Part shown: positions 2,554 through 33,803 of the stretch, piece after piece
How the letters are laid out: each line of letters begins with the position of its first letter
How positions within the stretch are numbered: the first letter of the stretch is position 1
IMG/VR virus record: IMGVR_UViG_3300045988_069571
Span: 1 to 44,934 of that record
DNA length: 44,934 nucleotides
Reading direction: 5' to 3' (one strand)
Origin: a virus
The notes under the pieces: generated by a model
What the model was told of the DNA's origin: nothing
Databases searched by the model: none
Seen by the model: only the letters and a program-made list of their open reading frames with translations
Position numbers and translations under genes: made by a program

Positions 2554-2718
2554 CCGCTTCTTCTTAATCAAGAGCCTGTAACCGGGGCACTTCTCCTGCC
2601 CGCAGTTATATGGCTCTTTTTTTATCCAGCAATCGCAGACTTTCCGTAGTTTTGCCCCACATGCCTTACAGAAATTAGCTCCTTCCGGGTTGTTCGTTTT
2701 GCAAGAAGAACATTCCAA
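2542..2718 (-). CDS. Small zinc-ribbon protein (58 aa, below track cutoff)
   Basis: TTG start at 2718 sits right after an in-frame TAA, with the SD AGGGGGTGG upstream. My translation is MECSSCKTNNPEGANFCKACGAKLRKVCDCWIKKEPYNCGQEKCPGYRLLIKKKRLQT. The CxxC...NPEGANFCxxCGAKL motif is the classic zinc-ribbon signature. Confidence 0.55.
   Translation of the reverse strand: MECSSCKTNNPEGANFCKACGAKLRKVCDCWIKKEPYNCGQEKCPGYRLLIKKKRLQT
2571..2623 (+). terminator. Putative terminator after the zinc-ribbon gene
   Basis: Outer stem AGAGCC (2571-2576) / GGCTCT (2612-2617), inner stem GGGCA (2585-2589) / TGCCC (2597-2601), with a T7 run ending at 2623 (first T shared with the outer stem). It lies inside the convergent sORF. 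Confidence 0.4.
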
Positions 2719-2747
2719 TTAGTCCACCCCCTTCCTCTCAGTCCGTT

Positions 2748-2963
2748 TTATCGGACTTCGCTTGTGGTATTCTCGTAGAGAGCATCAACAGAAACACCAA
2801 GTACATGAGCAAGGCGCGGAAGAACTGTGCTCGGAGGTTTTCGATCTCCGGTCTCCCACATAGTTACGGTGCTCGGGCTTTTCAAATCCAGCCGAAACGC
2901 AAGCTGGGCCTGGGTCAGACCGGCGGACTGCCGTAGCTCTTTAATTCGGAAACAGGTACCCAA
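2748..2963 (-). CDS. Cro-like XRE-family HTH regulator (71 aa)
   Basis: TTG start with the SD GGAGGTG (revcomp of 2969-2975) 5 nt upstream. The motif LRQSAGLTQAQLAFRLD is an XRE HTH. The gene is divergent from the repressor gene. Confidence 0.75.
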   Translation of the reverse strand: MGTCFRIKELRQSAGLTQAQLAFRLDLKSPSTVTMWETGDRKPPSTVLPRLAHVLGVSVDALYENTTSEVR

Positions 2964-2979
2964 ATTCTCACCTCCAAAT

Positions 2980-3084
2980 TCTCGTTATGTGAACTATTAT
3001 ATTCTCATATCGTGATTTTATCAAGCTGGCAGATTTACTAAAAATCTCTTTTTGTGATTGTGCTTGATTATTCACATTTTGTGA
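2980..3084. promoter_or_regulatory. Genetic-switch operator set: four 13-bp TC(T/A)C-N5-GTGA sites
   Basis: Sites are TCTCGTTATGTGA (2980-2992), TCTCATATCGTGA (3003-3015), TCTCTTTTTGTGA (3045-3057) and TCACATTTTGTGA (3072-3084). Two of them lie in the spacers of the divergent promoters. Confidence 0.55.
2996..3024 (-). promoter_or_regulatory. Early-lytic promoter TTGATA-17-TATAAT
   Basis: On the minus strand, TTGATA is the revcomp of 3019-3024, followed by a 17-nt spacer, and TATAAT is the revcomp of 2996-3001. Confidence 0.7.
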
Positions 3085-3092
3085 TATATAGT
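3064..3092 (+). promoter_or_regulatory. Repressor promoter TTGATT-17-TATAGT
   Basis: TTGATT at 3064-3069, a 17-nt spacer containing the operator at 3072-3084, and TATAGT at 3087-3092. Confidence 0.6.
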
Positions 3093-3110
3093 GTAGGCGA
3101 GGTGGTCAAA

Positions 3111-3521
3111 GTGAGAATCCAAGAGATACGAAAAAGTAAAGGAATAAAGCAGAAGGAATTGGCCGCCAAGCTTGGGATTGCGGCTAATACATTGAGCCAG
3201 TACGAAACAGGTAATAGAGAGCCAGACCTTGAAACCATCAAAAGGATTGCGCTCGTATTAGAAGTTACTGTAGACGAACTCCTTGACGCAAAAACAAAAG
3301 CACCCACCCTTACCAAGAAGGATGAGCGCGATATCGAAAAGAAGTTAGCGGATATTTTAGCAGATCTAGAGAGCGGGCAGGACGGACTTATGTTTTCAGG
3401 CGAATCCATTGACCCTACCACCCGCGAGCTCCTGGCGGATTCTCTTCGTAACAGTATGGAAATGGGCAAGAAACTTGCCAAGCAAAAGTATACGCCGAAA
3501 AAATACCGCAAGGAGGATTAA
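3111..3521 (+). CDS. CI/ImmR-like XRE-family repressor (136 aa)
   Basis: GTG at 3111 lies after the SD GAGGTGG (3099-3105) and downstream of the promoter. The track's longer start at 3054 would precede the promoter. The motif QKELAAKLGIAANTLSQYETG is an HTH. Confidence 0.8.
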   Translation: MRIQEIRKSKGIKQKELAAKLGIAANTLSQYETGNREPDLETIKRIALVLEVTVDELLDAKTKAPTLTKKDERDIEKKLADILADLESGQDGLMFSGESIDPTTRELLADSLRNSMEMGKKLAKQKYTPKKYRKED

Positions 3522-9737: not shown

Positions 9738-9815
9738 AAAAATAAGGAGTCCGTGAGGAGGGCGGCGACGTGTACCAACCCTGTATCCTCACGTCCTCCA
9801 TGTCTATATTGTCGC

Positions 9816-32070: not shown

Positions 32071-32530
32071 TCGTCCTCGCCGCCTCTCTGATGGCCGCCA
32101 GCTTGTCAGATAGGGTCATTTCATCAGCCTGGGCCACAGTCTCCGCCTTCTCCTGGGGCTTGTCCCTCCACTTGTCCGGCCGCCTGTTTTTCAGCCAGAA
32201 GATCTGCGCCGCCGTGTCCGGTATGACCTGCTTCACGGTCTGGATGACCTTCCGCCCATCTTTTTCGCTGATTTCCACCCGCTCCTCCATGTACTCATAG
32301 CCCAAGGCCCGTTTCAGGAGCGCGTTTTCCACCTGGATGTCTACGATTTCCTTGCCCTTTTTTAGGGCCTCGGAAATCTCGGGATGCTTATTCTTCCAGT
32401 CGTACAAGGTTGCCGGGTTTATTCCCATTTTTTCGGCAAGCTGCTCGTCTGTCAGCCCATCTCTGGCCCAGCCCTCCAGCAGCAGGAGCCCGTCCGGCTC
32501 CAGCCATCTCTGATACTTGCCTTTCGCCAC
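32060..32530 (-). CDS. terS: Terminase small subunit (HTH type)
   Basis: GTG at 32530 lies after GAGAGGTGG and gives MAKGKYQRWLEPDG...LTDEQLAEKMGINPATLYDWKNKH. An alternative ATG at 32599 would add 23 aa. Confidence 0.75.
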   Translation of the reverse strand: MAKGKYQRWLEPDGLLLLEGWARDGLTDEQLAEKMGINPATLYDWKNKHPEISEALKKGKEIVDIQVENALLKRALGYEYMEERVEISEKDGRKVIQTVKQVIPDTAAQIFWLKNRRPDKWRDKPQEKAETVAQADEMTLSDKLAAIREAARTIDN

Positions 32531-32600
32531 AACGGGCTCACCACCTCTCTCCGTCGATTCTTGGTGCCACCGCCCGCCTAATGCGGCGAGGAGCGGCATA

Positions 32601-32858
32601 TCAAAGCCTCACTCGTTGGACATATCCACACCTCTTGCATCGGTAAGTGTTGTGGTGGCTCGTGCCCATTAAGACATCATGCTCGGTGACTTGCGCCAGC
32701 AGTTCAAATTCGTGCTTGCACCAGCACCCGCGGAAGTAATTGCAAATTCTTCTAAGCATAAATATCTCCTTCTGGAGCCGAGAGGCGGTATTGAGCCGCC
32801 ACACGTCCACAACGTTGTCCATGGCCACCGCTTCCGCTTCTGCTACTGCACTCGGCAT
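32601..32858 (-). CDS. Small Cys-rich protein upstream of terS (73-85 aa)
   Basis: ORF from the track. It contains CWCKHE...CKRCG. The start is ambiguous between 32858 and 32823. Confidence 0.55.
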   Translation of the reverse strand: MPSAVAEAEAVAMDNVVDVWRLNTASRLQKEIFMLRRICNYFRGCWCKHEFELLAQVTEHDVLMGTSHHNTYRCKRCGYVQRVRL

Positions 32859-33300
32859 ATGTGCGCTTCTCGCTTAGATTGTCACGCCCTAGCCTTGGTG
32901 GCGACATCATGATTAGCCACTCGCAGGGTAGTTTTCAGCGGGATAGTGCCGGGGCAAGTCATAGCTGCCACCGCTTCCGCCTCCATGACAGGCGGGCGTC
33001 ATGTCCCTTCTCCGGGGCCGTCAGACGCTCTAGGCTACCCGGTATAGTGTCTTTCCACAGTCAGCTCCGTGGTCTTTGGAGCGGTTTGTCTATTGCCCGC
33101 AAGGGGCAAAGTTTCGCCGCATGGAGGGCGCGACCCTCCGGCCCGGATGTGTGGGCTGACGCGCTTGTGCGGCATATTGCACACAGTAGGGGCAGCGACT
33201 ACACCGCCGCCACCCCCTCTGCGTGAAGAAGGAAAAGGGGGCGGAAAGATAATGGGAGCGCGAAGGCATACGCCCCCACGCTCCCATTATCGCATAGGTA
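32859..33300 (-). other. ORF-free, hairpin-dense region: late leader, structured RNA or packaging site
   Basis: No credible ORF in any frame. Multiple 5-10-bp stems are present (listed in the finding). One stem has a G-U pair only when read as minus-strand RNA. Confidence 0.5.
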
Positions 33301-33308
33301 AAGTCTAA

Positions 33309-33328
33309 AATTCACAAATCTGTGAATT
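33309..33328. promoter_or_regulatory. Perfect palindrome AATTCACA-AATC-TGTGAATT (operator and/or weak terminator)
   Basis: It has 8-bp arms and a 4-nt spacer and abuts the stop codon of the 80-aa HTH gene. Its half-sites, TCAC/GTGA, are the same as in the switch operators but are spaced 6 nt apart rather than 5. Confidence 0.5.
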
Positions 33329-33571
33329 TCAAGAAATTTTATTACTTTTTTTCGGAGGGCTATTTGGCCAATCGGTTCGCCCCAGCAGGTAGTCAATGGA
33401 CACATCAAATCGATCAGCCAATCCCTCCAGAGCTTTTCTGGATGGCTCCATTTCTCCCCGCTCCAGCCTCCCAATTGCATTCCTGTCCAATTTACAGCAC
33501 TCTGCTAGTGCACACCGTTTTAACCTGTTTCTTTCCCTGAGCCTCTTCAGCCTCTCCGGAAACTCGTTCAA
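33329..33571 (-). CDS. XRE-family HTH protein (80 aa)
   Basis: TTG start 7 nt after GGAGGG. The motif RCALAECCKLDRNAIGRLERGE is an HTH. Confidence 0.7.
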   Translation of the reverse strand: MNEFPERLKRLRERNRLKRCALAECCKLDRNAIGRLERGEMEPSRKALEGLADRFDVSIDYLLGRTDWPNSPPKKSNKIS

Positions 33572-33803
33572 GGGCTATCCCTCCTCCCTCATGCTGTCCG
33601 CCCTCCCCGTTCTTATTTTCCTCCTTTTTGCTTACGGTGAAAAAATCATCATCCATCGCAAAAACACTTCGTTTGTGATACATAGTCGCTCCGATAGAAT
33701 CAATGACAAAATATGTATCGTGTGGATAATGCTCTTGCAACCAACCAATAACCTGCTTCAGAATGGGATAAATTTCGCAATACTGTTTGTCATACTGTTT
33801 CAT
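33492..33803 (-). CDS. Small protein preceding the HTH gene (103 aa)
   Basis: ATG at 33803 lies after GGGGAGGG and has an ATGA overlap with the YopX stop. The 3' end overlaps the HTH gene by 80 nt. Confidence 0.55.
   Translation of the reverse strand: MKQYDKQYCEIYPILKQVIGWLQEHYPHDTYFVIDSIGATMYHKRSVFAMDDDFFTVSKKEENKNGEGGQHEGGGIALERVSGEAEEAQGKKQVKTVCTSRVL

What the first reader, a model, noticed from the sequence alone, without database searches (positions are those of the whole stretch)
32859..33328. About 440 bp without any credible ORF, packed with hairpins, directly upstream of the packaging genes
Seen: in an otherwise tightly packed genome, this GC-rich stretch has only short, Arg/Pro/Gly-type shadow ORFs.

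Stems I can fold by eye (plus-strand coordinates):
- 33251-33260 / 33279-33288 (10 bp).
- 33210-33218 / 33236-33244 (9 bp). This stem has an A-C mismatch as plus-strand RNA but a G-U pair as minus-strand RNA, which favours a minus-strand transcript.
- 33123-33128 / 33134-33139.
- 33093-33098 / 33104-33109.
- 33064-33068 / 33078-33082.
- Two mutually exclusive stems: 32984-32989 / 32998-33003 versus 32977-32982 / 32990-32995.

Other features:
- A 14-nt direct repeat GCCACCGCTTCCGC occurs at 32824-32837 and 32967-32980.
- The region is preceded by the perfect palindrome AATTCACA-N4-TGTGAATT (33309-33328).
- A possible extended -10, TGCGATAAT, lies on the minus strand (33294-33286).

Inference, with three non-exclusive readings:
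1. A long late-operon leader acting in antitermination, analogous to lambda PR'/qut/tR'.
2. A cos-type packaging site, which sits upstream of terS in cos phages.
3. A free-standing structured RNA.
Basis: partly seen in the sequence, partly recalled or inferred. Interest (0 to 1): 0.62.

Follow-up and report, generated by a model that had tools for sequence, protein, structure and literature searches.

The report
Phage array of tRNA-like structured RNAs
The "empty" stretch in front of the phage's DNA-packaging genes is a minus-strand row of non-coding RNA modules: an intricately folded pseudoknot/kissing-loop RNA flanked by tRNA look-alikes. It belongs to a family found in hundreds of human-gut phage contigs that matches no catalogued RNA family, and its function is unknown.

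Summary
The stretch is non-coding, folds far better than shuffled sequence, and most of the hand-folded stems are real.

It is neither a cos/pac site nor simply a leader. It is a minus-strand array of RNA modules, running 33297 to 32562, beyond the flagged limits at the low end:
- a terminator-like hairpin that overlaps an extended -10
- a long hairpin
- a 58-nt mini-cloverleaf
- a 207-nt core with an H-type pseudoknot and two hairpins whose 7-nt loops are complementary
- an 84-nt tRNA-like element ending in CCA
- a small ORF
- a 12-bp minihelix ending in ACCA

Each tRNA-like module follows an AUAU|G junction.

I found 284 core copies in viral and human-gut metagenome contigs. The flanking protein genes are unrelated, with at least four terminase types. 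True tRNAs sit at the same junctions in 46% of copies, and 185 of 186 are on the same strand.

Covariation is strong: 91.8% of cells are paired against 32-46% when the partners are slid, and 11 of 19 pairs change on both sides. Rfam 15 has no matching family.

Most likely this is a tRNA-punctuated transcript cut by RNase P into stable RNAs.

This scan noted the same family earlier on other genomes.

The parts
33309..33328 (.). Perfect palindrome AATTCACA-N4-TGTGAATT, centred about 40 bp upstream of the inferred start. It may be the operator for this phage's own 80-aa XRE HTH protein.
   Evidence: Read in the sequence. Only about 4 of roughly 100 relatives share it, the same ones that share this HTH gene body. 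The operator role is inferred.
33286..33294 (-). Extended -10 promoter candidate TGCGATAAT. The inferred transcription start is near 33279.
   Evidence: Conservation across relatives begins exactly here. Variants are TGCGAAAAT, TTTAAAAT and TTTAGAAT, and all keep A2 and T6 of the hexamer. Loci without this cassette have TTGATT-17-TGGTATAAT or TTGATA-17-TGATATAAT in the same place. No start site was mapped.
33248..33291 (-). M1: a 20-bp hairpin with a GUAU loop, followed by the U-rich tail UUUCC. It is terminator-like for the upstream HTH gene, and its 5' arm contains the -10 element.
   Evidence: -37.8 kcal/mol, z = -7.9. Listed as terminator-like. Three G-U pairs form only in the minus sense, and relatives carry compensatory changes.
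33180..33225 (-). M2: a long hairpin, CACGCAG.GGGGGUGGCGGC...GUCGCUGCCCCU.CUGUGUG, preceded by a pyrimidine tract (CCUUCUUCA) and followed by CAAUAU.
   Evidence: -34.3 kcal/mol, z = -5.8. All 26 sequence variants fold the same way, with G-U pairs and compensatory changes.
33116..33173 (-). M3: a 58-nt mini-cloverleaf with a 6-bp acceptor-like stem GCCGCA/UGCGGC, a 4-bp anticodon-like arm and a T-like arm GGAGGG/CCCUCC. It starts right after AUAU. It is not a functional tRNA.
   Evidence: 27 variants keep the cloverleaf through compensatory changes, for example GCCGCC/GGCGGC and GAGGGG/CCCCUC. It lies upstream of the core in 171 of 248 loci and is usually 8 nt from it. ARAGORN and the Rfam tRNA model do not call it.
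33064..33112 (-). M4: a variable insert of two small hairpins between M3 and the core. Most relatives lack it.
   Evidence: Folds as two hairpins, z = -2.5. Missing in Castelnaud and many other loci.
32857..33063 (-). Core RNA, 207 nt. It has an H-type pseudoknot (S1 33038-42/33012-16; S2 33024-28/32996-33000). Hairpin H3 is 32990-95/32977-82 with loop GUCAUGG at 32983-89. Hairpin H4 is 32971-73/32950-52 with the complementary loop CUAUGAC at 32958-64. A 3' domain with a variable hairpin ends in ...GCGCACAUAU.
   Evidence: The covariance model gives one hit in the window, 141 bits. Loop-loop pairs covary: GUCAUGG/CUAUGAC, GUCAUGG/CCAUGAC, GUCAUAG/CUAUGAC, GGUCUC/GAGACU, GCCUC/GAGGC and GCCAU/AUGGC. 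There is no conserved ORF and no Rfam family.
32773..32856 (-). M7: an 84-nt degenerate tRNA-like element with acceptor GCCGAG/CUCGGC, T-like arm GGCGG-CUCAAUA-CCGCC and 3' end UCCA. It carries the second copy of the 14-nt repeat. It had been read as the N-terminus of an 85-aa protein.
   Evidence: 77 copies in 29 variants, always after AUAU or AUAC. It takes the place of a true tRNA-Thr in sister loci. Conservation stops at the RBS of the next ORF.
32601..32759 (-). A 52-aa Cys-rich ORF with RBS GGAGAU, the likely real coding part of the '85-aa ORF'. It is variable cargo and not part of the conserved RNA.
   Evidence: Only 2-5 relatives share it. No Pfam or PHROG hit.
32562..32597 (-). A tRNA-type minihelix: 6 bp, a C-C internal loop, 6 bp and a 6-nt loop, then single-stranded ACCA. 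It is preceded by AUAU, and its first G completes the spurious ATG of the long terS frame.
   Evidence: 124 copies in 20 variants, all with the same fold and with compensatory changes. z = -3.5. It lies downstream of the core in 152 of 200 loci. TerS matches its PHROG from the GTG at 32530.

Best explanation
The region is a phage 'tRNA-island' type cassette of non-coding RNAs on the minus strand.

Shown:
- It is a chain of independently conserved, covarying RNA modules: M2 hairpin, M3 mini-cloverleaf, a pseudoknot/kissing-loop core, the M7 tRNA-like element with CCA, and a minihelix ending in ACCA.
- The chain is shared by hundreds of gut-phage contigs whose surrounding genes differ.
- In about half of the relatives, genuine tRNA genes sit at the same AUAU|G junctions on the same strand.

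Inferred:
- Transcription starts near 33279 from the extended -10 TGCGATAAT. That element is built into the 5' arm of the terminator hairpin closing the upstream HTH gene, so read-through is stopped while locally started transcripts lack the full hairpin.
- The transcript runs through the whole array into terS-terL.
- Host RNase P cuts 5' of each tRNA-like module, at 33174|33173, 32857|32856 and 32598|32597. This would work as in tRNA clusters and in plant-mitochondrial t-elements.
- The cuts would release a stable RNA of about 317 nt (mini-cloverleaf plus core, 33173 to 32857) and two small CCA-ended tRNA mimics, and would separate the packaging mRNA from them.
- The core then acts in trans during lytic growth. 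Its target is unknown. Candidates are a protein partner, a decoy for tRNA-directed host enzymes, or self-assembly through its complementary loops.
For: Conservation pattern. Relatives cover 33297-32765 and 32601-32562 in 30-99 loci. The HTH gene body, the small ORF and terS are covered in only 0-5 loci.

Varied surroundings. Downstream genes include at least four terminase types, portal, anti-repressor and methyltransferase genes. Upstream genes are an XRE HTH or a terL C-terminus.

Covariation:
- On a structure-blind MAFFT alignment, 94.4% of cells are paired against 33-43% when slid. Eight pairs change on both sides, and the pseudoknot helix is 100% paired.
- On 59 distinct sequences, including a 'type 2' core with different helix sequences, 91.8% are paired against 32-46% slid. 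Eleven of 19 pairs change on both sides, and 0 of 500 shuffles reach this.
- Loop-loop complementarity changes in step.
- The mini-cloverleaf, minihelix, M2 and M7 all keep their folds through substitutions.

Link to tRNAs:
- 132 of 284 cores have a tRNA within -1.5/+2 kb, and 185 of 186 of those tRNAs are on the same strand.
- True tRNA-Ile and tRNA-Thr follow the same AAUAU|G and CAUAU|G leaders as the mimics.

Other points. No ORF is conserved. There are alternative promoter cassettes at the same place. Rfam finds only tRNAs in sister arrays. Strandedness comes from G-U pairs that would be A-C mismatches on the other strand.
Against: - The promoter, co-transcription and RNase P cuts are all inferred.
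- The core alone does not fold better than shuffles by nested-structure energy (z = +0.8). Its support is comparative only.
- A putative 7-bp helix in the 3' domain, UCCCGCU/AGCGGGA, shows uncompensated mismatches, so that part of the fold is unsolved.
- M3, M7 and the minihelix fail every tRNA detector, so RNase P recognition is only plausible, not shown.
- No hit was found in 185,579 representative bacterial genomes, so the host range rests on two Flavonifractor phages.
- Many homologues are closely related, which inflates cell counts.
Confidence: 0.75

Rival explanations
1. A cis-acting late-operon leader. The terminator-like hairpin M1 and the structured RNA behind it would control, by attenuation or antitermination or by mRNA stabilisation, how much transcription reaches terS-terL. 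The RNA would have no function of its own in trans.
For: - In this window the array lies directly between the early HTH gene and terS, with no room for another promoter.
- M1 is a strong hairpin with a U-rich tail.
- All three alternative promoter cassettes are followed by a hairpin and a pyrimidine or U-rich tract.
- An XRE regulator gene is the usual upstream neighbour.
Against: - The same modules occur between terL and portal, and in front of anti-repressor or methyltransferase genes.
- The modules are shuffled, inserted and deleted as cassettes together with true tRNAs.
- CCA-ended tRNA mimics with RNase-P-type junctions point to excision rather than a leader role.
- No Q- or N-type protein and no known antitermination RNA was found.
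Confidence: 0.15
2. A cos- or pac-type packaging recognition site read as DNA by the terminase.
For: It lies upstream of terS, where cos sites sit in many cos phages. It is rich in inverted repeats.
Against: - It is shared by phages with at least four unrelated terS/terL types, including an HNH-associated one, and by loci where it precedes the portal gene.
- Substitutions keep RNA pairing, including G-U pairs that mean nothing in duplex DNA.
- The 119-bp terminal repeat of the record lies at the window ends, not here.
Confidence: 0.03
3. A decaying tRNA gene cluster: relics of former phage tRNAs with no present function.
For: - The window has no intact tRNA.
- M3, M7 and the minihelix look like degraded tRNAs.
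- Sister phages have real tRNAs at the same junctions.
Against: - The mimics are conserved in 77-171 copies with compensatory changes that keep their non-tRNA folds.
- The core is not tRNA-derived, and it is the best conserved part.
Confidence: 0.04
4. Mainly a DNA-level regulatory region. The 44-bp M1 inverted repeat and the 33309-33328 palindrome would be operators for the adjacent XRE HTH protein, and the rest would be spacer.
For: A small XRE HTH gene is directly upstream in most M1-type loci. The palindrome is centred near -40 of the candidate promoter.
Against: - This explains at most 90 bp of about 740.
- M1 variants change in the way RNA hairpins do, with G-U pairs and compensatory pairs.
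- The palindrome is not conserved.
Confidence: 0.03

Closest known systems
GOLLD (Rfam RF01998) and ROOL (RF03087) large ornate RNAs
   Same: They are encoded in phages and prophages, often beside tRNA islands and possibly co-transcribed with them (PMC5737381; PMC12286853). They contain pseudoknots and covarying kissing loops, and their function is unknown.
   Different: No covariance-model match at gathering score, or at E up to 10. This RNA is much smaller: the core is 207 nt and the unit with its cloverleaf about 317 nt, against roughly 580 and over 800 nt. Its sequence and helix plan are different. Multimer formation has not been tested here.
Phage T4 tRNA cluster with its co-transcribed stable 'species 1 and 2' RNAs (from my own knowledge, not checked in a paper here)
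   Same: Non-tRNA stable RNAs are embedded in a phage tRNA transcription unit and released by the host's tRNA-processing enzymes. Their function is unknown.
   Different: There is no sequence relation. Here the array can lack real tRNAs altogether and uses tRNA mimics as punctuation. The host is a gut Clostridia-type bacterium.
Plant-mitochondrial t-elements (PMC1920247); the mascRNA at the MALAT1 3' end is a similar case (from my own knowledge)
   Same: tRNA-like structures that are not tRNAs lie next to other transcripts and are thought to act as RNase P or RNase Z cutting signals that define RNA ends.
   Different: They come from a different domain of life. Cleavage at the phage junctions has not been shown.
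Lambda PR'-qut-6S RNA-tR' late leader
   Same: A short structured transcript and a terminator lie between the regulatory region and the late or packaging genes.
   Different: No Q-type antiterminator gene is present; the neighbour is an XRE HTH. The element is about 740 nt, modular, tRNA-linked, and found at other genome positions.
tmRNA (ssrA)
   Same: It combines a tRNA-like part with pseudoknots and a 3' CCA.
   Different: ARAGORN finds no tmRNA. The acceptor-like stems are local, not formed by the 5' and 3' ends. No conserved tag reading frame exists.

Membership tests
GOLLD / ROOL / other catalogued RNA families (Rfam 15) | A match to the family's covariance model | tested here: not met
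   The only gathering-score hit in the window is RAGATH-31, at 9746-9799. Nothing meaningful appears at E up to 10 in 32600-33600. Eleven sister loci give only tRNA, int-alpA and GP20-b.
GOLLD / ROOL kind (phage RNAs of tRNA islands) | Encoded in phages or prophages next to, and co-oriented with, tRNA genes | tested here: met
   132 of 284 cores have a tRNA within -1.5/+2 kb, and 185 of 186 are on the same strand. The context is stated for GOLLD and ROOL in PMC5737381 and PMC12286853.
GOLLD / ROOL kind | Forms RNA-only homo-oligomers through intermolecular kissing loops | not testable with these tools
   Complementary, covarying loops of H3 and H4 exist. Whether they pair within one molecule or between molecules cannot be decided from sequence.
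tRNA | A cloverleaf with a 7-nt anticodon loop and a canonical T-loop, recognised by ARAGORN or Rfam RF00005 | tested here: not met
   No tRNA is found in the window. There is no RF00005 hit at E up to 10. M3 has a 3-5 nt T-like loop and a 2-3 bp D arm.
tmRNA | A tRNA-like domain closed by the 5' and 3' ends, plus a tag reading frame | tested here: not met
   ARAGORN finds no tmRNA in the window or in 80 related regions. No conserved ORF exists.
cos / pac packaging site | Specific to one terminase family | tested here: not met
   The same element occurs with at least four terminase clusters and with non-terminase neighbours.
cos / pac packaging site | Coincides with the virion DNA ends or the headful start | not testable with these tools
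   The record's 119-bp terminal repeat lies at the window ends, but physical ends are unknown.
Intrinsic terminator (M1) | A G+C-rich hairpin directly followed by a U tract | tested here: inconclusive
   It is a 20-bp hairpin listed as terminator-like. The tail AUUAUCUUUCC is only moderately U-rich. Relatives have up to five U's.
Lambda-type Q antitermination leader | A Q-family antiterminator gene directly upstream of the late promoter | tested here: not met
   The upstream protein matches HTH_31, HTH_3 and PHROG transcriptional regulators only.
tRNA-punctuated (RNase P-processed) transcript / t-element | Acceptor-like stem plus T-like arm, or a 12-bp minihelix, placed at RNA boundaries | tested here: met
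   M3, M7 and the minihelix all have such stems and follow AUAU|G. True tRNAs in sister loci follow the same leaders.
tRNA-punctuated (RNase P-processed) transcript / t-element | Cleavage at the junctions in vivo or in vitro | not testable with these tools

The most novel reading that the evidence does not exclude
The 317-nt cloverleaf-plus-core RNA would be a new class of self-assembling phage RNA. The fully complementary 7-nt loops of the adjacent hairpins H3 and H4 would pair between molecules rather than within one, building dimers, rings or cages. Kissing loops first seen as 'tertiary' covariation in ROOL and GOLLD turned out to do exactly this (PMC12286853). The tRNA mimics would serve both as processing handles and as decoys for tRNA-directed host enzymes.
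Probability: 0.1. Interest if true: 0.85.

Novelty: new variant of a known kind. Interest (0 to 1): 0.62.

Why it matters
Structured non-coding RNAs of phages are few, and the known large ones (GOLLD, ROOL) have spectacular architectures but no known function.

This is a compact, abundant member of the same ecological kind, from human-gut phages. Its pseudoknot and loop-loop pairs are clearly supported, which makes it small enough for chemical probing, cryo-EM and genetics.

The tRNA mimics at fixed AUAU|G junctions suggest that phages use the host's tRNA-processing machinery to cut RNAs other than tRNAs out of their transcripts, and possibly to mature the packaging mRNA.

On the practical side, the result corrects the annotation. 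The '85-aa protein' and the first 23 codons of terS are RNA modules, and gene callers have peppered the homologous region of the two deposited Flavonifractor phages with small hypothetical proteins.

Tried and rejected
- Known-family searches gave nothing for the region: Rfam at gathering and permissive thresholds and ARAGORN for tRNA and tmRNA.
- Two scans of 185,579 representative bacterial genomes gave no hit, one with a gapped core pattern and one with the 23-mer. I could therefore not place the element in host chromosomes or use genome-based relatives.
- Mutual information with APC on a MAFFT alignment was dominated by module and phylogeny signal and was not used.
- A simple stacked-pair scan was too noisy.
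- The putative 3'-domain helix UCCCGCU/AGCGGGA was rejected because of uncompensated mismatches. Pairing of GGGUAG with CUACCC, suggested by the MFE fold, is not kept in relatives.
- The small peptides were rejected. MTPACHGGGSGG..., MEAEAVAAM... and a tmRNA-like 'AENY' tag all have frames and stops that differ between homologues.
- The minihelix as an attP-type copy of a host tRNA 3' end was considered and set aside. Its loop is not T-loop-like, and it is not next to the integrase.
- Literature searches for a description of this RNA found none. This is not proof that none exists.

Full report
**Setting**

The window is a complete 44,934-bp virus record with a 119-bp terminal repeat at its ends. 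Around the finding all genes read on the minus strand:
- an 80-aa XRE-type HTH protein (33329-33571)
- the flagged gap
- a nominal 85-aa ORF (32601-32858)
- terS
- terL, of the Terminase_3 family

**The observation**

The gap has only unconserved open frames without family matches. It folds far better than shuffled sequence: z = -5.2 as minus-strand RNA and -4.2 as plus-strand RNA.

Two are alternatives that compete with conserved helices and are not kept in relatives; details are in the observation check. The repeat, the palindrome and the TGCGATAAT motif are all present.

Several helices contain G-U pairs that would be A-C mismatches on the plus strand. M1 has three and M2 has several.

**Relatives**

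Two deposited Flavonifractor plautii phages share pieces of the region in the same position, although their terminases differ.

Pattern scans then found the element widely:
- 86, 29 and 104 IMG/VR contigs, depending on the pattern
- 117 metagenome contigs, many labelled human gut
- no hits in the representative bacterial genomes

In total I count 284 copies of the core.

Mapping all relatives onto the window shows what is conserved. The non-coding stretch 33297-32765 and a separate block at 32601-32562 are shared by 30-99 loci. The HTH gene body, the small ORF and terS are shared by 0-5 loci.

The surrounding genes vary:
- Downstream there are at least four terminase clusters, or portal, anti-repressor or methyltransferase genes.
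- Upstream there is either a small XRE HTH gene or the C-terminus of terL.

That pattern excludes a terminase-specific cos/pac site. It also argues against a simple leader of one operon.

**Anatomy, 5' to 3' on the minus strand**

1. M1 (33291-33248) is a 20-bp hairpin with a U-rich tail, listed as terminator-like.
   - Its 5' arm contains TGCGATAAT, and conservation across relatives starts exactly there.
   - The hexamer varies (GAAAAT, TAAAAT, TAGAAT) but keeps A2 and T6.
   - Loci without M1 have a consensus -35/extended -10 promoter at the same place.
   - I infer a promoter whose transcripts start inside the hairpin arm, near 33279. The hairpin would then stop read-through from the HTH gene but not locally started transcripts.
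2. M2 (33225-33180) is a long hairpin kept in 26 variants.
3. After CAAUAU comes M3 (33173-33116), a 58-nt mini-cloverleaf. Its acceptor-like, anticodon-like and T-like helices are all kept by compensatory changes in 27 variants.
4. M4 (33112-33064) is a two-hairpin insert absent from most relatives.
5. The core spans 33063-32857.
6. After CACAUAU comes M7 (32856-32773), an 84-nt tRNA-like element that ends in UCCA. It has 77 copies, and it sits where sister phages have a true tRNA-Thr.
7. A 52-aa ORF follows, with its own RBS.
8. After GAUAU comes a 12-bp minihelix ending in ACCA (32597-32562). It has 124 copies in 20 variants, all with the same fold.

Two annotation consequences follow:
- The ATG of the long terS frame is made by the minihelix leader 'AU' plus the minihelix's first G. 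TerS matches its PHROG from the GTG at 32530.
- The first 33 codons of the '85-aa ORF' are M7.

**The core**

On a MAFFT alignment of 20 sequences made without structural information, my proposed helices score as follows:
- 94.4% of cells are paired, against 33-43% when the 3' partners are slid.
- Eight pairs change on both sides; shuffles average 3.4, and 1 of 500 reaches eight.
- The pseudoknot helix S2 is paired in 100% of cells, with two double-compensated positions.

I then built a covariance model from the nested helices only. It found exactly one copy in the window (141 bits). It also found a 'type 2' group whose helices have quite different sequences: S1 is CUGGC/GCCAG instead of CCGGG/CCCGG, and S2 is GGUCGC/GCGGCC instead of GCGUC/GACGC.

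On the resulting 59 distinct sequences:
- 91.8% of cells pair, against 32-46% when slid.
- Eleven of 19 pairs change on both sides.
- No shuffle out of 500 reaches any of the five measures.

S2 was not part of the model, so its 86.6% pairing is not an effect of fitting.

The loops of the adjacent hairpins H3 and H4 are complementary over their full 7 nt (GUCAUGG/CUAUGAC), and they change together. The other observed pairs are GUCAUGG/CCAUGAC, GUCAUAG/CUAUGAC, GGUCUC/GAGACU, GCCUC/GAGGC and, in type 2, GCCAU/AUGGC.

The 3' domain has invariant single-stranded-looking segments (CUGAAAACU, GUGUGACAAUCUAAGCGGGA) around a hairpin of variable length and sequence. Its fold remains unsolved.

The nested-structure energy of the core alone is unremarkable (z = +0.8). 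This fits a fold that depends on pseudoknotted contacts.

**Link to tRNAs**

- ARAGORN finds true tRNAs within -1.5/+2 kb of 132 of the 284 cores. They are Thr-UGU, Gln-UUG, Met-CAU, Ile-GAU and others.
- 185 of the 186 tRNAs lie on the core's strand.
- They are inserted at the same AUAU|G junctions that precede M3, M7 and the minihelix.

The window itself has no true tRNA.

**Mechanism**

Shown: this is a conserved, modular, covarying, tRNA-linked set of non-coding RNA structures on the minus strand.

Inferred: one transcript, cut by RNase P 5' of each tRNA-like module. The cuts would release a cloverleaf-plus-core RNA of about 317 nt and two CCA-ended mimics, and would detach the packaging mRNA. 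tRNA clusters work this way, and so do plant-mitochondrial t-elements (PMC1920247).

The function of the core is unknown. I favour a trans-acting stable RNA of the lytic cycle.

**Comparison with known systems**

The closest known kind is the group of phage and prophage RNAs found beside tRNA islands, GOLLD and ROOL (PMC5737381, PMC12286853). Membership in those families was tested with their models and is not met.

The element is also not a tRNA or a tmRNA. It is not a Q-type leader, because the upstream protein is an XRE HTH.

Four literature searches found no description of it.

Earlier notes of this scan, made on other genomes, describe what is evidently the same family and reached the same reading. 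I re-derived the evidence independently here.

**Verdict**

This is a real, ordinary-looking 'gap' that holds an apparently uncatalogued structured RNA family of human-gut phages, embedded in a tRNA-punctuated array.

Noticed in passing
window 9746-9799 (-): A full-length match to the RAGATH-31 RNA motif (Rfam RF03101): 81.6 bits against a gathering score of 71.8. It lies far from the finding, near the tail/lysis region.
   Followed up: no
window 32601-32858 (-): The nominal 85-aa Cys-rich ORF is a chimera. Codons 1-33 are the tRNA-like module M7. A 52-aa ORF with its own RBS (GGAGAU, ATG 32759) is the likely gene. It has no Pfam or PHROG match, and only 2-5 relatives share it.
   Followed up: partly
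window 32530-32599 (-): The long terS frame (ATG 32599, 179 aa) begins inside the minihelix. TerS matches phrog_309 from residue 1 when started at GTG 32530 (156 aa).
   Followed up: partly
window 33521-33610 (-) and related loci: The RBS and first ~20 codons of the XRE HTH gene are conserved at the DNA level in about 40 loci, although the rest of the gene is not. A 65-81 aa XRE HTH gene is the direct upstream neighbour of the array in most loci with an M1-type start. This looks like a regulator/RNA-array unit or a recombination boundary.
   Followed up: partly
L019, L050, L064, L077, L082 and others (sister loci): In these phages the same RNA array lies between the end of terL and the portal gene, behind a consensus promoter (TTGATT-17-TGGTATAAT or TTGATA-17-TGATATAAT).
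   Followed up: partly
L009, L010, L011, L026, L029, L054, L066 (about 90 nt upstream of the core): ARAGORN calls a 79-81-nt 'tRNA-???' with an abnormal two-base anticodon read-out (aa). This is a further tRNA-like module type that takes the place of M3.
   Followed up: no
L082 6586-6653, L013 7124-7193, L007 4598-4661: Related phages carry int-alpA RNA (RF02996) and GP20-b (RF03003) motifs elsewhere in the fetched loci.
   Followed up: no
L001 (ON453903) 2983-3483 and L002 (ON453904) 2634-3117: In the two deposited Flavonifractor phages the homologous RNA modules are annotated as several small 'hypothetical proteins', probably gene-caller artefacts.
   Followed up: partly
window 32824-32837 and 32967-32980: The 14-nt repeat GCGGAAGCGGUGGC (minus sense) links M7 to the H3-H4 junction of the core. 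Most relatives have it in both modules. This suggests a partial duplication or a shared binding site.
   Followed up: partly
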